Assembly (NCBI GenBank): GCA_048937405.1
Contig: JBHLNF010000027.1
Coordinates: 1-14,146 of the forward strand
Source of the DNA: Promethearchaeota archaeon
GTDB taxonomy: Archaea > Asgardarchaeota > Lokiarchaeia > Sigyniarchaeales > SOKP01
Direction of reading: 5' to 3'
DNA length: 14,146 nucleotides
Positions within the stretch are counted from its first letter, which is position 1, and the number at the start of each line of letters is the position of its first letter. Positions 4,859 to 11,933 of this stretch are shown here, one piece after another. A model generated the notes under the pieces. It ran no database searches, was not told where the DNA came from, and worked only from the letters and a program-made list of their open reading frames with translations. The translations under genes and the position numbers were made by a program.

Positions 4859-5470
4859 TTATTTTCTTAGCATCGCACAAAGACGTACATCTGTATCGGG
4901 AATTATTGTGTCTTCAAGTACTTCAAACCCATGGTGTTCATAAATAGATACATTTTTATCCGTATTTGTTTCAAGGTAAATTGGTAAATTTTCTTTCTCA
5001 ACCCTTGCAAACATAGCTTTTAGTAAAGTACTCGCATGACCCTTTCCTTGGAATTCAGGTTCAACCCCAAGAGGTGCTAAATACCAATGTTTGAAAGGTG
5101 CATTACGTTTATGTATTAAATCAGTATATTCTTCGATTTTTTTTGTTCTTTTGTAAAATTCCATACCAAGTTCATCGACGACTTTCTTTCCCCCACTCCG
5201 TACTTTTGCTTCGTATGTTTTATAAATATATTCAAAAGGGATCCATCCAGCAAACCCTTCTAAATCAGAACTTGGGGAATATACCTCTCCGTATAAAACG
5301 TCATAACGTATTACATATTCAAAGACATACTTTAGTTTCTCTTTTCTTTCAGAATCATCAGGAATGGTGTAAATAAAACCTGGATTGTTATAAAAAGCGC
5401 GGGATAAAACTTCACTGGCTTTTTTAACATGATCTTCAGTTAAACGGAAAAGTTTGTTTAAATCAGTCAT
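4859..5470 (-). CDS. GNAT-family N-acetyltransferase (resembles the puromycin N-acetyltransferase-like subgroup)
   Basis: HWYLAPLGVEPEFQGKGHAS (acetyl-CoA-binding Q-G-x-G motif A), LPIYLET and NVSIYEHHGF (motif B). N-terminal 'VLSRAF..NP'. Confidence 0.9.
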   Translation of the reverse strand: MTDLNKLFRLTEDHVKKASEVLSRAFYNNPGFIYTIPDDSERKEKLKYVFEYVIRYDVLYGEVYSPSSDLEGFAGWIPFEYIYKTYEAKVRSGGKKVVDELGMEFYKRTKKIEEYTDLIHKRNAPFKHWYLAPLGVEPEFQGKGHASTLLKAMFARVEKENLPIYLETNTDKNVSIYEHHGFEVLEDTIIPDTDVRLCAMLRK

Positions 5471-8057: not shown

Positions 8058-9266
8058 CTAAAGAGCAATAAATATTTGTACCATAGTCATTATTGCACCA
8101 GAAACTATTGGAACAGTAAAATTATCGTCTACTCCAAATGAAAAGAGTTCAATTATAGGAGCCACAACCCCTCCACATAAAAGAATAATTAAGGGAATAT
8201 CAAAAATAAAGAAGATAAAATATCCACAAATAAGAACACTACCGAAATACGCAAGTGTACCTTCAAGTGTTTTATCAAAAATTTTATGTTTACCAAACGC
8301 TAAGCCAAATATTTTGCCAAAAATATCTCCGAATATTAGAAATATTAACGAAGCTATAGCAATATTTTTTTCAAATACTAGAATGCTAATAAAACCAGCA
8401 ACGAGAAATACTGTCATTGAAGAAAACTTACTAACTTCACCTTTTTTAAAAATCGATTTGACTTTTTCAGTCAATAGCACATTAGTTTGCTTATTAATGA
8501 ATCGTGTTAAATCAAGTAAAATAAAAGCTAATGCAACAGAACCAATGAGTATAAGTGAGGGAAGTTTTGGATTAAAAACATAAAATATGACAAATATTAT
8601 TGCAAATGGTCTCATCGCAACTCGCCACCAATGAGATTTAAAAGTCTCATCTTCGATGAGTATTTTCTTCTCTGATATTATTTTATAAAGCCCAATTGAA
8701 GCAATGTGAATAAGGATTAATATAAAGAAGAAATTATATTCACTCGTAGGATAAATTTGAAAAACAGCAAAACCAAGAATAGGGAATATAATAAGGGATA
8801 AAAGAGAGCCAATATTACAAATATAAATAAAAAGAACAACTAAAATTAATAAATACAGTATTACATAGAAGATTTCTATACTTGTAGTCATATAACAAAC
8901 TAAATAGAAAAGTAATAAACCTGTTGATGTTGCTACTCCCTGACCACCATGAAAATTAAGATAATAAGGGAAAATATGTCCAATAATCGCAGCAATTCCA
9001 CTTAATTGTATTATGAAAAAGCTGCGATCTAATCCATAAGCCATTAACATTACTGCTAAACCTTTTAAAGTATCAAATATTGCAGTTGGAATACCATACT
9101 TAAGCCCCAAAACGCGAAATGCATTAACTGTTCCAGGATTTTTTGTACCTTCCTCCCTTAAATCAATTCCTTTTAATTTTCCAAAAATAAATGCTGGTAA
9201 AATTCCCCCGATCAAATAACCTAAGATAATGCATAAAATATCTAAAAATAGTTCAATGAAATCCAT
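8058..9266 (-). CDS. Fusion protein, copy A: N-terminal PlsY-like acyltransferase domain + C-terminal CTP-dependent lipid kinase domain (phytol/dolichol/Dgk1, COG0170-like)
   Basis: PlsY motifs GYLIGGI.PA, GIDLREEGTKNPGTVNAFRVLG, FDTLKG and AAIIGHIFP...FHGGQGVAT. Kinase motifs FGDIFGKIFG..FG.HK..DKTLEG and IE......DDNFTVP. ATG at 9266 is preferred over TTG at 9269 because AAGTGA lies 6 nt upstream. 402 aa. Confidence 0.85.
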   Translation of the reverse strand: MDFIELFLDILCIILGYLIGGILPAFIFGKLKGIDLREEGTKNPGTVNAFRVLGLKYGIPTAIFDTLKGLAVMLMAYGLDRSFFIIQLSGIAAIIGHIFPYYLNFHGGQGVATSTGLLLFYLVCYMTTSIEIFYVILYLLILVVLFIYICNIGSLLSLIIFPILGFAVFQIYPTSEYNFFFILILIHIASIGLYKIISEKKILIEDETFKSHWWRVAMRPFAIIFVIFYVFNPKLPSLILIGSVALAFILLDLTRFINKQTNVLLTEKVKSIFKKGEVSKFSSMTVFLVAGFISILVFEKNIAIASLIFLIFGDIFGKIFGLAFGKHKIFDKTLEGTLAYFGSVLICGYFIFFIFDIPLIILLCGGVVAPIIELFSFGVDDNFTVPIVSGAIMTMVQIFIAL

Positions 9267-9303
9267 CAATACTCACTTAATTTGATACTAATTGAATATT
9301 TTG

Positions 9304-9464: not shown

Positions 9465-10673
9465 TTAAAAACCAAAAAACATTAAGGAGGTCATAACAGC
9501 ACCACTAATTATGGGAACAGTGAAATTGTCATTCATTCCCAAGGGAAGAAATTCAGAAAAAGTTGCTGCAATTCCTCCTCCTATTAAAATAAATAGGGGG
9601 ATATCCACTATTGTATAAATGAAGTATCCACATATAATAATTGTACCGATATAGGCAAGAGTTCCCTCAAGGGATTTATCAAATAATTTATGACGACCAT
9701 AAGCTAGACCAAATATTTTACTAAACATGTCACCAAAAGTGAGAAAAACCAATGCAGTTATCGCTATCTCTATCTTAAATAATAAAATAACAATGAAAGT
9801 AGAAATTAAAAATATTGTCATTGATGAGAATTTTTTTTCCTCACCCTTTTTAAAAATTGATTTGATTTTTACTGTTAATAGTTCTTGAGCCTGCTGAGAA
9901 AGAAATCGAAATAAATCAAGACCAATAAAACATATACTTACAATACCTATTAAAAAAAGAGCGACTGTTTTAGAATACACAAAGTAAAATACCAAGAATA
10001 GAAGAGCAAATGGTCTTATCGCCACCCTCCACCAATGAGATTTAAAACTCTCATCCTCAATATTAAACAATTTTAACGTTATAATACTATAAATACCAAA
10101 TAAGATAAGAAAAGCAAGAATTATCCAAGAAAAAATATTATAAGGATTATTAGGATAATGTAAATAAATAGCATACCCATAAACAGGTAAAGTAAAAACC
10201 ATTGGCATAGATTTTTTTGTTCTAGATGCTGAATAAAATATTATATAGATAGCCATTAAGAAGAATATTACAAAAAAAAATTCAATATTAACTAAATACT
10301 GAGTGAACATATAAAGTAATATAATTCCAGAAGCTGTTGCTATTCCTTGACCACCACGAAAGTTCATATAAAAAGGTAAAATATGTCCTACAATTGCCGC
10401 AAATCCGCTAATTTGAGCAAAAATATAATTAGCCCCTATTCCAAGTGTTAAAAAAATAGCAATTATGCCTTTTAAAGTATCATACAACGCTGTTAGAAGG
10501 GCATATTTGAAACCTAAAACGATATGGACATTGGAAGTTCCTGCATTCCCAGTTCCTTCTTCTCGAATATCAATTCCCTTTAATTTCCCTAAAAAATATC
10601 CAGGATTAATTGTACCTAAAAAATACCCAATTAAAATACCGAAAAAACCTAAAATTACCTCAAAAGGCTCTAT
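9465..10673 (-). CDS. Fusion protein, copy B: PlsY-like + CTP-dependent lipid kinase domain; probable non-canonical ATA start
   Basis: The frame stays open upstream of the track's TTG (10487): IEPFEVILGFFGILIGYFLGTINPGYFLGKLKGIDIREEGTGNAGTSNVHIVLGFKYALLTALYDTLKG, colinear with copy A from residue 1. There is an in-frame TGA at 10680-10682 and no in-frame ATG/GTG/TTG between 10487 and that stop. Motifs GHILP...FRGGQGIAT, FGDMFSKIFG..YG.HK..DKSLEG and NDNFTVP. 402 aa. Confidence 0.82.
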   Translation of the reverse strand: MEPFEVILGFFGILIGYFLGTINPGYFLGKLKGIDIREEGTGNAGTSNVHIVLGFKYALLTALYDTLKGIIAIFLTLGIGANYIFAQISGFAAIVGHILPFYMNFRGGQGIATASGIILLYMFTQYLVNIEFFFVIFFLMAIYIIFYSASRTKKSMPMVFTLPVYGYAIYLHYPNNPYNIFSWIILAFLILFGIYSIITLKLFNIEDESFKSHWWRVAIRPFALLFLVFYFVYSKTVALFLIGIVSICFIGLDLFRFLSQQAQELLTVKIKSIFKKGEEKKFSSMTIFLISTFIVILLFKIEIAITALVFLTFGDMFSKIFGLAYGRHKLFDKSLEGTLAYIGTIIICGYFIYTIVDIPLFILIGGGIAATFSEFLPLGMNDNFTVPIISGAVMTSLMFFGF

Positions 10674-10709
10674 GGAATTTCACTTAAATTAGTAATAATC
10701 TATAATAGA

Positions 10710-10732
10710 TTTACAAAAATATAAGGATTAAG
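10710..10732 (-). promoter_or_regulatory. Putative promoter of fusion copy B (conserved with copy A)
   Basis: Minus strand CTTAATCCTTATATTTTTGTAAA is 19/23 identical to 9304-9326 and lies at nearly the same distance from the start. Confidence 0.6.
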
Positions 10733-10736
10733 ATTT

Positions 10737-10767
10737 AAAAAAAATAAAAATAAAATATAAAAAAAAA
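10737..10767 (-). terminator. Putative oligo-T terminator of tfb
   Basis: Successive T-tracts on the minus strand (A-runs on + across 10737-10767) begin about 30 nt after the tfb stop. Confidence 0.45.
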
Positions 10768-10799
10768 TTAATCTCCTTGTCCGAAATTGGATAATCTCT

Positions 10800-11732
10800 T
10801 CACTGGAGTTTGCTTTTTATCTGTTTAGAGCGAGATCTTAATGTAACCTCTGTGACTTTAGCCACTTCTGAGACTTCAGCCTGTGTCTTCCTGCAGTTTC
10901 CCGCTTTAGCCGCCATGTAAATTACACTTGCAGCTAAACCTTTGGGATCTTTACCTGTTCGTAATAATCCATTTTTAGATGCTTCAACCAGCATGTTGAT
11001 CGCTTGTTTCTGGGTTTCCATGGGTAAACCAAGGTCATTCCCGAACCGAAAGACTAATTGTTCCGCAGTTATGGGTTTATATTTCAAATTCAACTCAATA
11101 AGTACTTCCTTTACAATCATACCTAAAGAGCGATGGACAGTTCTTCTGGGGGTCATAGATGCTTCACATACTTCTTCAAGTAATCTTGGAAATTCATGTA
11201 CTCGAATTGCTGCATATAAGGAAGCAGCAATGAAACCATCAATCGATCTTCCCATAGTTAATTTTTTCTTTGCTACAACGGAATAAATCTTCCATGCCGT
11301 TTCTTTTATGTATTCTGGTATATTCATTTTGCTTGTGAGCATTTTAAGCTTAGGTTTTGCTTCCCAGAAATTTCTTTCAATGCTTGAAATTAACGAATTT
11401 TGGATTTTAGATAATCTTGAGAATAGTGTTTTTCCCCGAGCATTTATTAATCTACCCTTTGAATCAATTTTTGAGTTTGGTAACATAGTTCTCGGACCGA
11501 ATTCACGCCATCTTGGTTCGGTTCTACGTCTTTTATTGACTTCTTCTACAGTATAGGCGCGACGTTCATTTCCTACAAGATTACGACCGAAACTCATACC
11601 ACAATTCAAGCATACATTATCTCCATCCCGAGACTCGATAGAAGGATTATTACAGCATTGAGCATCTGAGCTACAGCTTAATTCATCCTCTGTAGTGGCT
11701 TTGGTTGAACGTAGTCTATCTTTATAACTCAT
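10800..11732 (-). CDS. tfb: Archaeal transcription initiation factor IIB (TFB)
   Basis: Zn ribbon CC...VCLNCG, B-reader-like ERRAY...RRRT, first cyclin repeat ERNF..A / GRSI....AASLYAAIR....PR.L.E, second repeat GKDPKGLAASVIY, and HTH KTQAEVSEVAKVTEVTLRSR. AAGTGA lies 6 nt upstream of the ATG. Confidence 0.96.
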   Translation of the reverse strand: MSYKDRLRSTKATTEDELSCSSDAQCCNNPSIESRDGDNVCLNCGMSFGRNLVGNERRAYTVEEVNKRRRTEPRWREFGPRTMLPNSKIDSKGRLINARGKTLFSRLSKIQNSLISSIERNFWEAKPKLKMLTSKMNIPEYIKETAWKIYSVVAKKKLTMGRSIDGFIAASLYAAIRVHEFPRLLEEVCEASMTPRRTVHRSLGMIVKEVLIELNLKYKPITAEQLVFRFGNDLGLPMETQKQAINMLVEASKNGLLRTGKDPKGLAASVIYMAAKAGNCRKTQAEVSEVAKVTEVTLRSRSKQIKSKLQ

Positions 11733-11933
11733 TTCTGTTCACTTTTTATTATATTATTCTTTTCCAGCGTTCTCTATAATAAACCATAAGGATATTGATC
11801 AACGCATTTTTTTGTTCTGTGATGCTTATGATCGGTTTTGTATATATTTATTGCGTTTTTATTTTATAATTTTACTTTTTTTATTATAGATAGTGTCTAT
11901 TTATTATGGTTATGTCACTAATTGTTAATCCAA

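What the first reader, a model, noticed from the sequence alone, without database searches (positions are those of the whole stretch)
10662..10690. Copy B appears to start at an ATA codon, and the ORF track misses 62 N-terminal residues
Seen: upstream of copy A the minus strand reads TTAAGTGA-GTATTG-ATG, and upstream of copy B it reads TTAAGTGA-AATTCC-ATA, with the same motif and 6-nt spacer. tfb also has AAGTGA-6nt-ATG. Starting at ATA (10673) gives 1209 nt, the same length as copy A (8058-9266), and a gap-free N-terminal alignment (MDFIELFL..GY vs IEPFEVIL..GY). An in-frame TGA lies three codons upstream and no canonical start exists before 10487, which would delete PlsY motif 1. Inference: AUA initiation is used, possibly to keep copy B at low level. 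Alternatives are a recent ATG>ATA mutation or a sequencing error.
Basis: partly seen in the sequence, partly recalled or inferred. Interest (0 to 1): 0.7.

Follow-up and report, generated by a model that had tools for sequence, protein, structure and literature searches.

The report
ATA start codon, Loki archaeon gene
The second copy of a tandem membrane-lipid enzyme gene in this uncultured Loki-type Asgard archaeon really has ATA where its relatives have the ATG start. It is very probably still translated from that ATA, because this genome starts several percent of its genes, even an essential ribosomal protein, at ATA or ATT behind a ribosome-binding site.

Summary
Copy B (window 9465-10673, minus strand) has ATA at the start position, six bases after AAGTGA. 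An in-frame TGA lies three codons upstream, and the first ATG/GTG/TTG lies 62 codons downstream, inside the PlsY domain. Metagenome contigs from two samples carry the same ATA, so an assembly error is unlikely.

All seven genus orthologues, and the closest database homologue, start at ATG at the aligned position. The ATA is therefore a species-specific G-to-A change. That does not make it a lesion:
- Copy B shows the same purifying selection as its ATG-starting orthologues, including the 62 "missing" codons.
- In the same genome the single-copy ribosomal protein uS4 also has ATA behind AGGTGA, where 29 of 29 orthologues have ATG.
- An estimated 150-320 of about 3,570 ORFs lack an early canonical start.
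- Twenty candidates checked encode Pfam domains starting at residues 1-12 after ATT, ATA, ATC or CTG in 15 cases.
- aIF1 starts at ATT in 22 of 22 readable genus genomes.
- The initiator tRNA has a normal CAU anticodon.

AUA initiation is supported. Deliberate down-tuning of copy B is untested. This scan has already reported the genome-wide habit in this genome and in other Lokiarchaeia. The public gene call (369 aa, from ATT 10574) is probably 33 residues too short.

The parts
10671..10673 (-). ATA, proposed initiation codon of copy B. It is orthologous to the ATG of 7 sister-species genes.
   Evidence: contigs of two samples carry it
10680..10685 (-). AAGTGA, a Shine-Dalgarno-like motif (GTGA core) 6 nt before the ATA. 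Its TGA (10682-10680) is also the in-frame stop that closes the frame upstream.
   Evidence: The GTGA spacer peaks at 6 nt before ATG starts, and AGTGA is enriched 3.7-fold there. AAGTG-N7-start is conserved in both paralogue clades.
9465..10673 (-). Copy B coding sequence: 402 codons plus stop. It has an N-terminal PlsY-like domain and a roughly 200-aa C-terminal membrane domain with no Pfam match.
10485..10487 (-). TTG, the first canonical start codon in the frame (codon 63). Starting here would delete TM1 and the GTGNAGTSN motif.
10572..10574 (-). ATT used as the start by the public gene call (369-aa product MDIREEG...). It cuts off 33 residues, including TM1.
10693..10703 (-). ATAGATTATTA, conserved 20-30 nt upstream of the start in the copy-B clade. 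It may be a TATA-type promoter element. Transcript start not determined.
   Evidence: conserved in G002, G048, G059, G061 and G000; a positional TATA analysis was inconclusive
8058..9266 (-). Copy A coding sequence (ATG start), the paralogue with 51% identity.
9273..9278 (-). AAGTGA, 6 nt before the ATG of copy A.
11739..11744 (-). AAGTGA, 6 nt before the ATG (11732-11730) of the tfb-like gene.

Best explanation
Copy B is an intact, selected gene whose start codon changed from ATG to ATA in this species' lineage, and it is still translated from that ATA.

Proposed mechanism (inferred): the small ribosomal subunit is positioned by pairing of the (A)GUGA motif, 6 nt upstream, with the 3' end of 16S rRNA. 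The ordinary initiator tRNA (anticodon CAU, found in this genome) then reads AUA with a mismatch at the third codon base. The protein therefore begins with Met and keeps its first transmembrane helix and the PlsY motif.

This works because the organism, a Loki-type Asgard archaeon, tolerates near-cognate starts (ATT, ATA, also ATC, CTG, ACG) genome-wide, mostly behind SD sites. Its start-codon proofreading factor aIF1 is itself always encoded with an ATT start in this genus.

Output from AUA is probably lower than from AUG. No evidence shows that this was selected for. The simplest reading is start-codon turnover under AT-biased mutation in a lineage with relaxed start-codon stringency.

Shown: the sequence facts, orthology of ATA to ATG, purifying selection, the genome-wide pattern, and the CAU initiator. 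Inferred: that ribosomes actually initiate at this AUA, and with what efficiency.
For: **Locus**
- There is no canonical start before codon 63, and stops close the frame upstream.
- ATA aligns codon for codon with the orthologues' ATG: G059 reads AAG TGT GAA TCT ATG GAC and G000 reads AAG TGA AAT TCC ATA GAG.
- The PlsY profile and the 5XJ5 structure need the residues that begin at the ATA.

**Sequence reliability**
- Contigs of two samples show ATA.

**Selection**
- dN/dS against 7 ATG-starting orthologues is 0.13-0.31 for the first 62 codons and 0.10-0.19 for the rest. ATG-versus-ATG pairs give the same range.
- G000-specific changes number 14 nonsynonymous and 48 synonymous; the sister genes show 14-25 and 38-79.
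- Variants in near-identical metagenome contigs are 33 synonymous and 7 nonsynonymous. The three that lie upstream of TTG 10487 are all synonymous.

**Same event in an essential gene**
- uS4 of G000 has AGGTGA-aatatt-ATA, while 29 of 29 orthologues have ATG.

**Same family**
- G001's only copy has AAGTGA-TAATAA-ATA aligned to ATG in its sister genes. A third member (G015) has lost its canonical start. The three lie in three separate clades.

**Genome-wide**
- In ORFs whose first canonical start is at least 20 codons further in, 5'-proximal ATA and ATT codons carry an SD of at least 5 nt in 11.5% and 12.4% of cases.
- Other codons there carry one in 3.8%, and interior ATA/ATT in 3.1-3.3% (Fisher p = 8e-4 and 6e-6).
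- 97 ORFs have no canonical start for at least 40 codons, against about 17 expected (and my own geometric null).
- 37% of those 97 have a near-cognate codon plus an SD of at least 5 nt. The figure is 13% for ATG starts and 7% in an interior control.
- Twenty candidates were checked with Pfam. In 15 of them a domain starts at residues 1-12 after the ATT/ATA/ATC/CTG codon. These include Ras-type GTPases, actin, a class-I aaRS, ThiF, a proteasome subunit, Usp and a GPN GTPase. uS4 is judged instead by its N-terminal MGDPRR alignment.

**Machinery**
- aIF1 starts at ATT in 22 of 22 readable genus loci.
- The initiator tRNA has anticodon CAU.
- Internal ATA codons align with Ile, in 109 of 143 aligned residues.

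**Precedent**
- AUA and AUU starts behind SD motifs give about 10-30% of AUG output in S. aureus (PMC13009471).
Against: - There is no direct evidence of initiation. No RNA run was listed, and no ribosome profiling or proteomics is available.
- All 7 genus orthologues and the closest database homologue use ATG, so the ATA is young. Pairwise and lineage substitution counts cannot exclude a very recent knockout.
- The SD here is only a 4-nt core (GTGA), weaker than in most of the genome-wide examples.
- A conserved ATAGATTATTA at -30 to -20 could be a TATA box. That would imply a very short or absent leader, where an SD could not help and AUA would be a poor start.
- A paralogue (copy A) could make loss of copy B harmless.
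- 19 of 54 genus genomes show no family member, so the family may be dispensable.
Confidence: 0.74

Rival explanations
1. Fresh start-codon loss. The ATG>ATA change silenced copy B very recently. The gene is a young pseudogene, redundant with copy A, that has not yet had time to decay.
For: - All 7 genus orthologues and the closest database homologue have ATG.
- A paralogue sits 198 nt downstream.
- The family was not found in 19 of 54 genus genomes.
- G-to-A is the expected mutation in a genome with 30% GC.
Against: - There is no stop or frameshift in 402 codons of a genome where a random frame closes about every 12 codons.
- G000-specific substitutions are 14 nonsynonymous to 48 synonymous, the same as in ATG-starting sisters.
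- The same change in essential uS4 is evidently tolerated.
- G001's sole family member also has ATA.
Confidence: 0.13
2. AUA initiation is real and was selected specifically to hold copy B at a low level. This is the first reader's regulatory idea and is a special case of the best explanation.
For: - Non-canonical starts lower output to about 10-30% of AUG in S. aureus reporters (PMC13009471).
- Copy B is the more divergent paralogue.
- The TGT>TGA change that created GTGA in G000 could be a compensating adjustment.
Against: - The ATA is unique to this species among the 8 copy-B genes in the 54 genus genomes searched, so it is not a conserved regulatory feature.
- The same change occurs in uS4, a highly expressed gene.
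- The genome-wide frequency points to drift rather than gene-specific design.
Confidence: 0.12
3. Translation starts further downstream, giving an N-terminally truncated protein. Candidates are ATT 10574, as in the public 369-aa gene call, or TTG 10487.
For: - A public gene caller chose ATT 10574.
- TTG 10487 is the first canonical codon.
Against: - Both candidates remove the first helix of the PlsY fold, and TTG also removes the conserved GTGNAGTSN motif.
- The skipped codons are under purifying selection (dN/dS 0.13-0.31). The three variants seen upstream of TTG 10487 are all synonymous.
- No SD of at least 4 nt precedes ATT 10574 at a proper spacing (reading).
Confidence: 0.05
4. Artefact or recoding. 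This groups a sequencing or assembly error, ATA reassigned to Met, read-through of the upstream TGA, and a frameshift from the GTG inside AAGTGA.
For: None positive. These are listed for completeness. The GTG at 10683 opens only a 7-codon frame.
Against: - Two samples' contigs agree on the ATA.
- Internal ATA codons align with Ile, in 109 of 143 aligned residues.
- TAA at 10691-10689 closes the frame even if the TGA were read through.
- The GTG mini-frame is not conserved in the orthologues.
Confidence: 0.02

Closest known systems
SD-directed AUA/AUU start codons of bacteria: S. aureus infC, ccpN and citZ (AUA) and cvfC1 (AUU) (PMC13009471); E. coli infC and pcnB AUU (own knowledge)
   Same: A near-cognate AUH codon sits at the normal spacing behind a Shine-Dalgarno motif and is read by the ordinary initiator tRNA. 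Output is reduced, to about 10-30% of AUG in reporters. The fidelity-factor gene itself carries such a codon (infC there, aIF1 here).
   Different: - Those cases are a handful of conserved regulatory genes per genome, with extended SDs.
- Here the change is species-specific, the SD core is only 4 nt, and the machinery is archaeal (aIF1/aIF1A/aIF2).
- The habit affects an estimated 4-9% of genes.
'Rare ATT start codon' proposed for the Asgard (Kariarchaeaceae) tubulin gene atubA (PMC13394414)
   Same: An Asgard gene whose deposited protein was too short. An upstream ATT at a plausible distance from a ribosome-binding site restores the conserved N-terminus.
   Different: That is a single anecdote in another Asgard lineage, presented as rare. 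No genome-wide or evolutionary analysis was made.
Near-cognate initiation sites seen by ribosome profiling in Haloferax volcanii (PMC7261190)
   Same: Archaeal ribosomes were seen at near-cognate codons; about 30% of the putative alternative start sites were of this kind.
   Different: Those sites were set aside as possible false positives and were alternative sites, not the sole start of conserved genes.
Eukaryotic near-cognate (non-AUG) initiation policed by eIF1 (abstract of PMC13754004; own knowledge of the eIF1 autoregulatory context)
   Same: The homologous fidelity factor (eIF1/aIF1) sets how often near-cognate codons are accepted. The factor's own weak start suggests feedback.
   Different: Eukaryotes scan from a cap and use Kozak context rather than SD pairing. 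AUA is among their weakest near-cognates.
Bacterial PlsY acyl-phosphate:glycerol-3-phosphate acyltransferase (PF02660; structure 5XJ5)
   Same: The N-terminal half matches PF02660 (E = 5e-32) and 5XJ5 (E = 1e-18) from the first helix onward.
   Different: - The protein is twice as long, with an extra C-terminal membrane domain that has no Pfam match.
- It scores below the TIGR00023 cut-off (98 against 137 bits).
- It has GGQG where 5XJ5 has GGKG.

Membership tests
SD-directed near-cognate (AUA) start codon | No canonical start codon is available upstream of conserved, required N-terminal sequence, and the frame is closed upstream. | tested here: met
   TGA at 10682-10680 and TAA at 10691-10689 close the frame. 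The first ATG/GTG/TTG is at codon 63. The PlsY profile starts at residue 15 and 5XJ5 aligns from residue 10.
SD-directed near-cognate (AUA) start codon | The candidate codon is positionally orthologous to the canonical start of relatives. | tested here: met
   Seven copy-B orthologues have ATG at the aligned codon, and the flanking codons align.
SD-directed near-cognate (AUA) start codon | A ribosome-binding motif lies at the organism's own preferred spacing. | tested here: met
   The GTGA core lies 6 nt before the ATA. The genome-wide GTGA spacer peaks at 6 nt, and AGTGA is enriched 3.7-fold before ATG starts. It is only a 4-nt match to the consensus AGGAGGTGA. The 16S 3' end is not in the assembly, so the anti-SD sequence was inferred from motif enrichment.
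SD-directed near-cognate (AUA) start codon | The gene, including the codons between the near-cognate and the first canonical start, is under purifying selection. | tested here: met
   dN/dS is 0.13-0.31 for the first 62 codons. Lineage-specific changes are 14 nonsynonymous to 48 synonymous. Contig variants are 33 synonymous to 7 nonsynonymous.
SD-directed near-cognate (AUA) start codon | Direct evidence that ribosomes initiate there (profiling, toeprint or N-terminal peptide). | not testable with these tools
   No RNA run was listed. No proteomics or Ribo-seq is on hand.
SD-directed near-cognate (AUA) start codon | The organism demonstrably uses such codons elsewhere. | tested here: met
   SD enrichment at 5'-proximal ATA/ATT (p = 8e-4 and 6e-6). 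Pfam domains start at residues 1-12 in 15 of 20 candidates checked. uS4 has ATA. aIF1 has ATT in 22 of 22 genus loci.
Pseudogene / decaying paralogue | Disrupted frame or relaxed constraint. | tested here: not met
   The open frame of 402 codons is intact. Substitution pattern is the same as in ATG-starting orthologues. A very recent inactivation cannot be excluded.
PlsY (glycerol-3-phosphate acyltransferase), equivalog TIGR00023 | Score above the curated equivalog cut-off, and conserved catalytic motifs. | tested here: not met
   PF02660 is matched (111.7 bits against a cut-off of 24.1). TIGR00023 scores only 98.1 bits against 137.2. GGQG replaces the GGKG of 5XJ5. It is a PlsY-like domain in a fusion protein, not shown to be a PlsY equivalog.
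Genetic-code change (ATA = Met) | Internal ATA codons align with Met in relatives. | tested here: not met
   The 21 internal ATA codons of copy B align with Ile in 109 of 143 orthologue residues and with Met in 14.

The most novel reading that the evidence does not exclude
Copy B is a snapshot of rapid start-codon turnover in a Lokiarchaeial genus that runs translation initiation at relaxed stringency.

- Roughly 4-9% of genes start at AUU, AUA, AUC, CUG or ACG, mostly SD-assisted.
- ATG<->ATA switches occur between sister species even in essential genes such as uS4.
- The set-point may be held by aIF1, whose own gene carries a genus-wide conserved AUU start. That would be a feedback loop analogous to bacterial infC and eukaryotic eIF1.
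- In copy B the neighbouring TGT>TGA change, which created the GTGA core, may be a compensatory gain of SD strength.

If true, start-codon fidelity in close archaeal relatives of eukaryotes is tunable and evolves. Many published Asgard protein N-termini, including actin and small GTPases, would then be mis-called.
Probability: 0.55. Interest if true: 0.75.

Novelty: new member of a known kind. Interest (0 to 1): 0.5.

Why it matters
**For this gene.** The correct product is 402 aa with a complete PlsY-like fold. The public call (369 aa) and any ATG/GTG/TTG-only call (340 aa) lose the first helix or the first catalytic-type motif. That would mislead any work on Asgard lipid synthesis.

**More broadly.** This locus adds evolutionary evidence to a pattern that this scan has already seen repeatedly in this genome and other Lokiarchaeia.
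- ATG>ATA changes arise in single species and are tolerated, even in uS4.
- They arose twice cleanly in this one gene family, and a third member lost its canonical start.
- The affected genes stay under normal selection.

In five full-text searches I found only one anecdotal ATT start for an Asgard gene (PMC13394414) and no genome-wide description. Standard gene finders that allow only ATG, GTG and TTG will truncate several percent of proteins in such genomes.

Tried and rejected
- **RNA evidence:** no RNA holder was listed for this stretch, so expression and the transcript start could not be examined.
- **Read laying** gave contigs only. 25 difference rows were not shown, but the depth arithmetic for X4 leaves no room for a further contig over 10655-10725 at 90% identity or more.
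- **16S rRNA** is not in the assembly. A grep for the anti-SD site hit only coding DNA. The SD consensus was therefore derived from k-mer enrichment.
- **tRNA detection:**
  - ARAGORN found only 14 tRNAs and no tRNA-Met, and no tRNA genes on the test loci. These tRNAs carry introns.
  - A pattern search for an initiator-like anticodon arm with an anticodon other than CAU gave only non-tRNA hits in the genus.
  - The real initiator was found by BLAST from a relative.
- **Leader length:** the position of TATA-like words relative to start codons showed no sharp peak, so whether the mRNA is leadered or leaderless stays open. The sigma-70 and terminator scan was uninformative for an archaeon.
- **C-terminal half:** Pfam gave no match even at E = 10.
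- **Upstream GTG:** a +1 frameshift from the GTG inside AAGTGA was rejected, because the mini-frame is not conserved.
- **Alternative start at ATT 10652:** the GAGGT just before it is too close to serve as an SD.
- **The c >= 20 class alone:** the count of ORFs lacking a canonical start for at least 20 codons is not evidence by itself, because my geometric null expects about 250 against 319 observed. Only the excess at 40 codons or more is informative.
Full report
**1. The observation**

On the minus strand the window reads ...TAA TTT AAG TGA AAT TCC ATA GAG CCT TTT GAG....
- ATA is at 10673-10671. AAGTGA is at 10685-10680, and its TGA is in frame with the ATA. A further TAA lies at 10691-10689.
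- The frame then stays open for 402 codons, to the stop at 9467-9465.
- It contains no ATG, GTG or TTG before TTG 10487, which is codon 63.
- Copy A (9266-8058) has the same length, an ATG start, and AAGTGA six bases upstream. So does the tfb-like gene.
- The two proteins are 51% identical, without gaps at the N-terminus.
- Both match the PlsY family PF02660, with profile position 1 at about residue 15.
- The solved PlsY structure 5XJ5 aligns from its residue 5 to residue 10 of copy B. The 62 codons that an ATG/GTG/TTG-only ORF list omits are therefore part of the fold.

**2. Is the base real?**

Logan contigs from two metagenome samples of one study cover the site without any difference. X1 covers 10110-10900 at depth about 20, and X4 covers 10625-10851 at depth 8. 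X1 may be the source sample of the assembly, so X4 is the more independent witness. No contig with another base was seen, which makes a sequencing or assembly error unlikely.

**3. What relatives show**

*The family in the genus.* It occurs in 35 of 54 genomes of the genus, with 42 distinct genes.

*Orthologues of copy B.*
- Seven orthologues of copy B, at 75-80% identity, all start with ATG.
- The flanks align codon for codon. G059 reads AAG TGT GAA TCT ATG GAC, and G000 reads AAG TGA AAT TCC ATA GAG.
- The closest database homologue (82% identity) also starts with Met.
- The ATA is therefore a derived G-to-A change in this species.

*Other family members without a canonical start.*
- G001's only copy reads AAGTGA-TAATAA-ATA, where its sister genes read AAGTGA-N6-ATG.
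- A G015 paralogue has GAG where a sister gene has its GTG start. An ATA lies one codon upstream of that GAG.
- A maximum-likelihood tree places the three genes in three separate, well-supported clades. Each is next to a gene with a canonical start.

*Conserved upstream motif.* AAGTG-N7-start is conserved across both paralogue clades. This argues that the motif lies on the mRNA and is used.

**4. Is copy B decaying?**

No sign of decay was found.
- Pairwise dN/dS against the seven ATG-starting orthologues is 0.13-0.31 for the first 62 codons and 0.10-0.19 for the rest. Comparisons among the ATG-starting genes give the same range.
- Changes unique to G000 at otherwise conserved columns number 14 nonsynonymous and 48 synonymous. 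The sister genes show 14-25 and 38-79.
- Variants in near-identical metagenome contigs are 33 synonymous and 7 nonsynonymous. The three that lie upstream of TTG 10487 are all synonymous.

These tests cannot exclude a knockout that happened very recently.

**5. The genome-wide context changes the reading**

I laid the whole genome (4.47 Mb, 29 contigs) in the script box and called 3,570 coding-like ORFs that have an upstream stop.

*The ribosome-binding motif.*
- Upstream of confident ATG starts, the words GAGGT, GGTGA and AGTGA are enriched about 4-fold.
- The GTGA spacer peaks at 6 nt.

*SD association of ATA and ATT.* These figures are for ORFs whose first canonical start lies at least 20 codons further in.
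- ATA and ATT codons within the first 10 codons carry an SD of at least 5 nt in 11.5% and 12.4% of cases.
- That is the same rate as real ATG starts (13%).
- Other codons there carry one in 3.8% of cases, and ATA/ATT in gene interiors in 3.1-3.3% (Fisher p = 8e-4 and 6e-6).

*ORFs with no early canonical start.*
- 97 ORFs have no canonical start for at least 40 codons. A simple geometric null expects about 17.
- Scaling by the chance that a coding region lacks ATG, GTG and TTG gives roughly 150-320 affected genes, or 4-9% (plus my own arithmetic). The estimate is rough.
- Of these 97 ORFs, 37% have a near-cognate codon with an SD of at least 5 nt. The figure is 13% for ATG starts and 7% in an interior control.
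- Near-cognate starts therefore lean more heavily on the SD.

*Pfam check of 20 candidates.* In 15 of them a domain begins at residues 1-12 after the ATT, ATA, ATC or CTG codon. They include:
- two Ras-type GTPases, whose P-loop would otherwise be lost
- actin, which marks the organism as an Asgard archaeon
- a class-I aminoacyl-tRNA synthetase
- ThiF, a proteasome subunit and two Usp proteins
- a GPN-loop GTPase, rubrerythrin and an XPD-type helicase

Public names for homologues say Promethearchaeota / Lokiarchaeota.

**6. The decisive analogy**

The single-copy ribosomal protein uS4 of this genome reads AGGTGA-aatatt-ATA GGA GAT CCA (IGDPRR...). All 29 orthologues fetched, from 5 genera in 2 families, read ATG GGA GAT CC.. 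This is the same event as in copy B: a species-specific ATG>ATA behind an SD, but in a gene that cannot be dispensable.

**7. Machinery**

- aIF1, the factor that rejects non-AUG codons, starts at ATT in G000. The frame after its upstream TAA reads GAG AGT ATT AAA GAC GAC GAT ATA TGT..., and the first canonical codon lies after the zinc knuckle.
- That ATT, with its GGTTGTGATAA context, is conserved in 22 of 22 readable loci in the genus. In other families of the order, aIF1 appears to use ATA, TTG or GTG.
- The initiator tRNA of G000 was found by similarity to a relative's gene. It carries introns and has the ordinary features: A1:U72, a GGG/CCC anticodon stem and anticodon CAU.
- Internal ATA codons of copy B align with Ile.

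Nothing points to a special tRNA or a code change. The likely mechanism is mismatch-tolerant decoding of AUA by Met-tRNAi on an SD-positioned subunit.

**8. Mechanism and its limits**

Shown: the anatomy, the orthology, the selection signal, the genome-wide habit and the normal initiator.

Inferred: initiation at this AUA, and a lower yield than from AUG.

By analogy, S. aureus AUA and AUU starts behind SDs give about 10-30% of AUG output (PMC13009471).

Open points:
- The SD core is only 4 nt.
- ATAGATTATTA is conserved at -30 to -20 in the copy-B clade. It may be a TATA box, which would leave little or no leader. I could not settle this, and no RNA data were available.
- The idea that ATA was selected to keep copy B low has no support beyond plausibility. 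The ATA is not conserved, and the same change hits uS4.

**9. Comparison with what is known**

- The kind, a non-canonical AUH start behind an SD, is established in bacteria: infC and pcnB (own knowledge) and ccpN, citZ and cvfC1 (PMC13009471).
- For archaea I found only near-cognate profiling peaks in Haloferax that the authors set aside (PMC7261190).
- For Asgard archaea I found only a single 'rare ATT start codon' proposed for a tubulin gene (PMC13394414).
- Five full-text searches found no genome-wide description.
- This scan's own earlier notes report the same habit in this genome and in other Lokiarchaeia. I reached it independently before reading them. I re-tested their aIF1 claim; I had tested uS4 after reading the notes.

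**10. Verdict**

The 'low-level' purpose is unsupported. As a single locus this is a further member of a known kind. Its added value has three parts:
- evidence of start-codon turnover (two clean ATG>ATA events and one start loss in one family, plus uS4)
- evidence that the affected gene stays under selection
- a corrected gene model: the public 369-aa call from ATT 10574-10572 is probably 33 residues short

Noticed in passing
G000:C28:552393-552896 (L026/L065): Ribosomal protein uS4 starts at ATA behind AGGTGA in this genome only. All 29 orthologues fetched have ATG.
   Followed up: yes
G000:C29:21980-22294 (L046/L141): aIF1 (SUI1 domain) starts at ATT. The ATT and its GGTTGTGATAA context are conserved in 22 of 22 readable genus loci. 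Other families of the order seem to use ATA, TTG or GTG. This suggests infC/eIF1-like feedback on start-codon stringency.
   Followed up: partly
G000:C3:~4900-5080 (L137 1380-1560, minus strand); G023:C1:~903300-903480 (L134): The initiator tRNA gene (A1:U72, GGG/CCC anticodon stem, CAU) is interrupted by an intron right after the anticodon loop. In G000 there is also further inserted sequence in the T-arm region. ARAGORN misses it and most other tRNAs of this genome.
   Followed up: partly
window 9468-10076 and 8061-8669 (minus strand): The C-terminal 200-aa membrane half of both paralogues has no Pfam match even at E = 10. It contains a nearly invariant FKSHWWRVA(I/M)RPFA segment and KSIFKKGE..KFSSMT.
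   Followed up: no
window 10347-10349 / alignment: Both paralogues have GGQG where the solved PlsY 5XJ5 has GGKG. They also score below the TIGR00023 equivalog cut-off, so their substrate or activity may differ from bacterial PlsY.
   Followed up: no
G002:C13:6184-8710; G059:C104:20783-23363: The tandem arrangement of copy A directly downstream of copy B is conserved in at least two other species of the genus.
   Followed up: partly
genome-wide: ACG codons near the 5' end of ORFs that lack an early canonical start carry an SD in 3 of 7 cases, and CTG in 2 of 13. One CTG case (Fer4-ETF alpha, G000:C6:21297) has a Fer4 domain starting at residue 3. The near-cognate set is probably wider than ATA and ATT.
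   Followed up: partly
G007:C18:24883-25194: There is a second, diverged aIF1-like copy (63% identity) with two in-frame TAA stops in a sister species. It is probably a pseudogene. G024 has an intact second copy (64%).
   Followed up: no
window 10640 (loose end in X1): The same sediment sample holds a contig from a relative's orthologue. It matches the window up to 10640 and then diverges. Read on the minus strand it encodes ..NPIELFIGIL, like the N-terminus of the G057 orthologue. Several species of the genus therefore co-occur in that sample.
   Followed up: no
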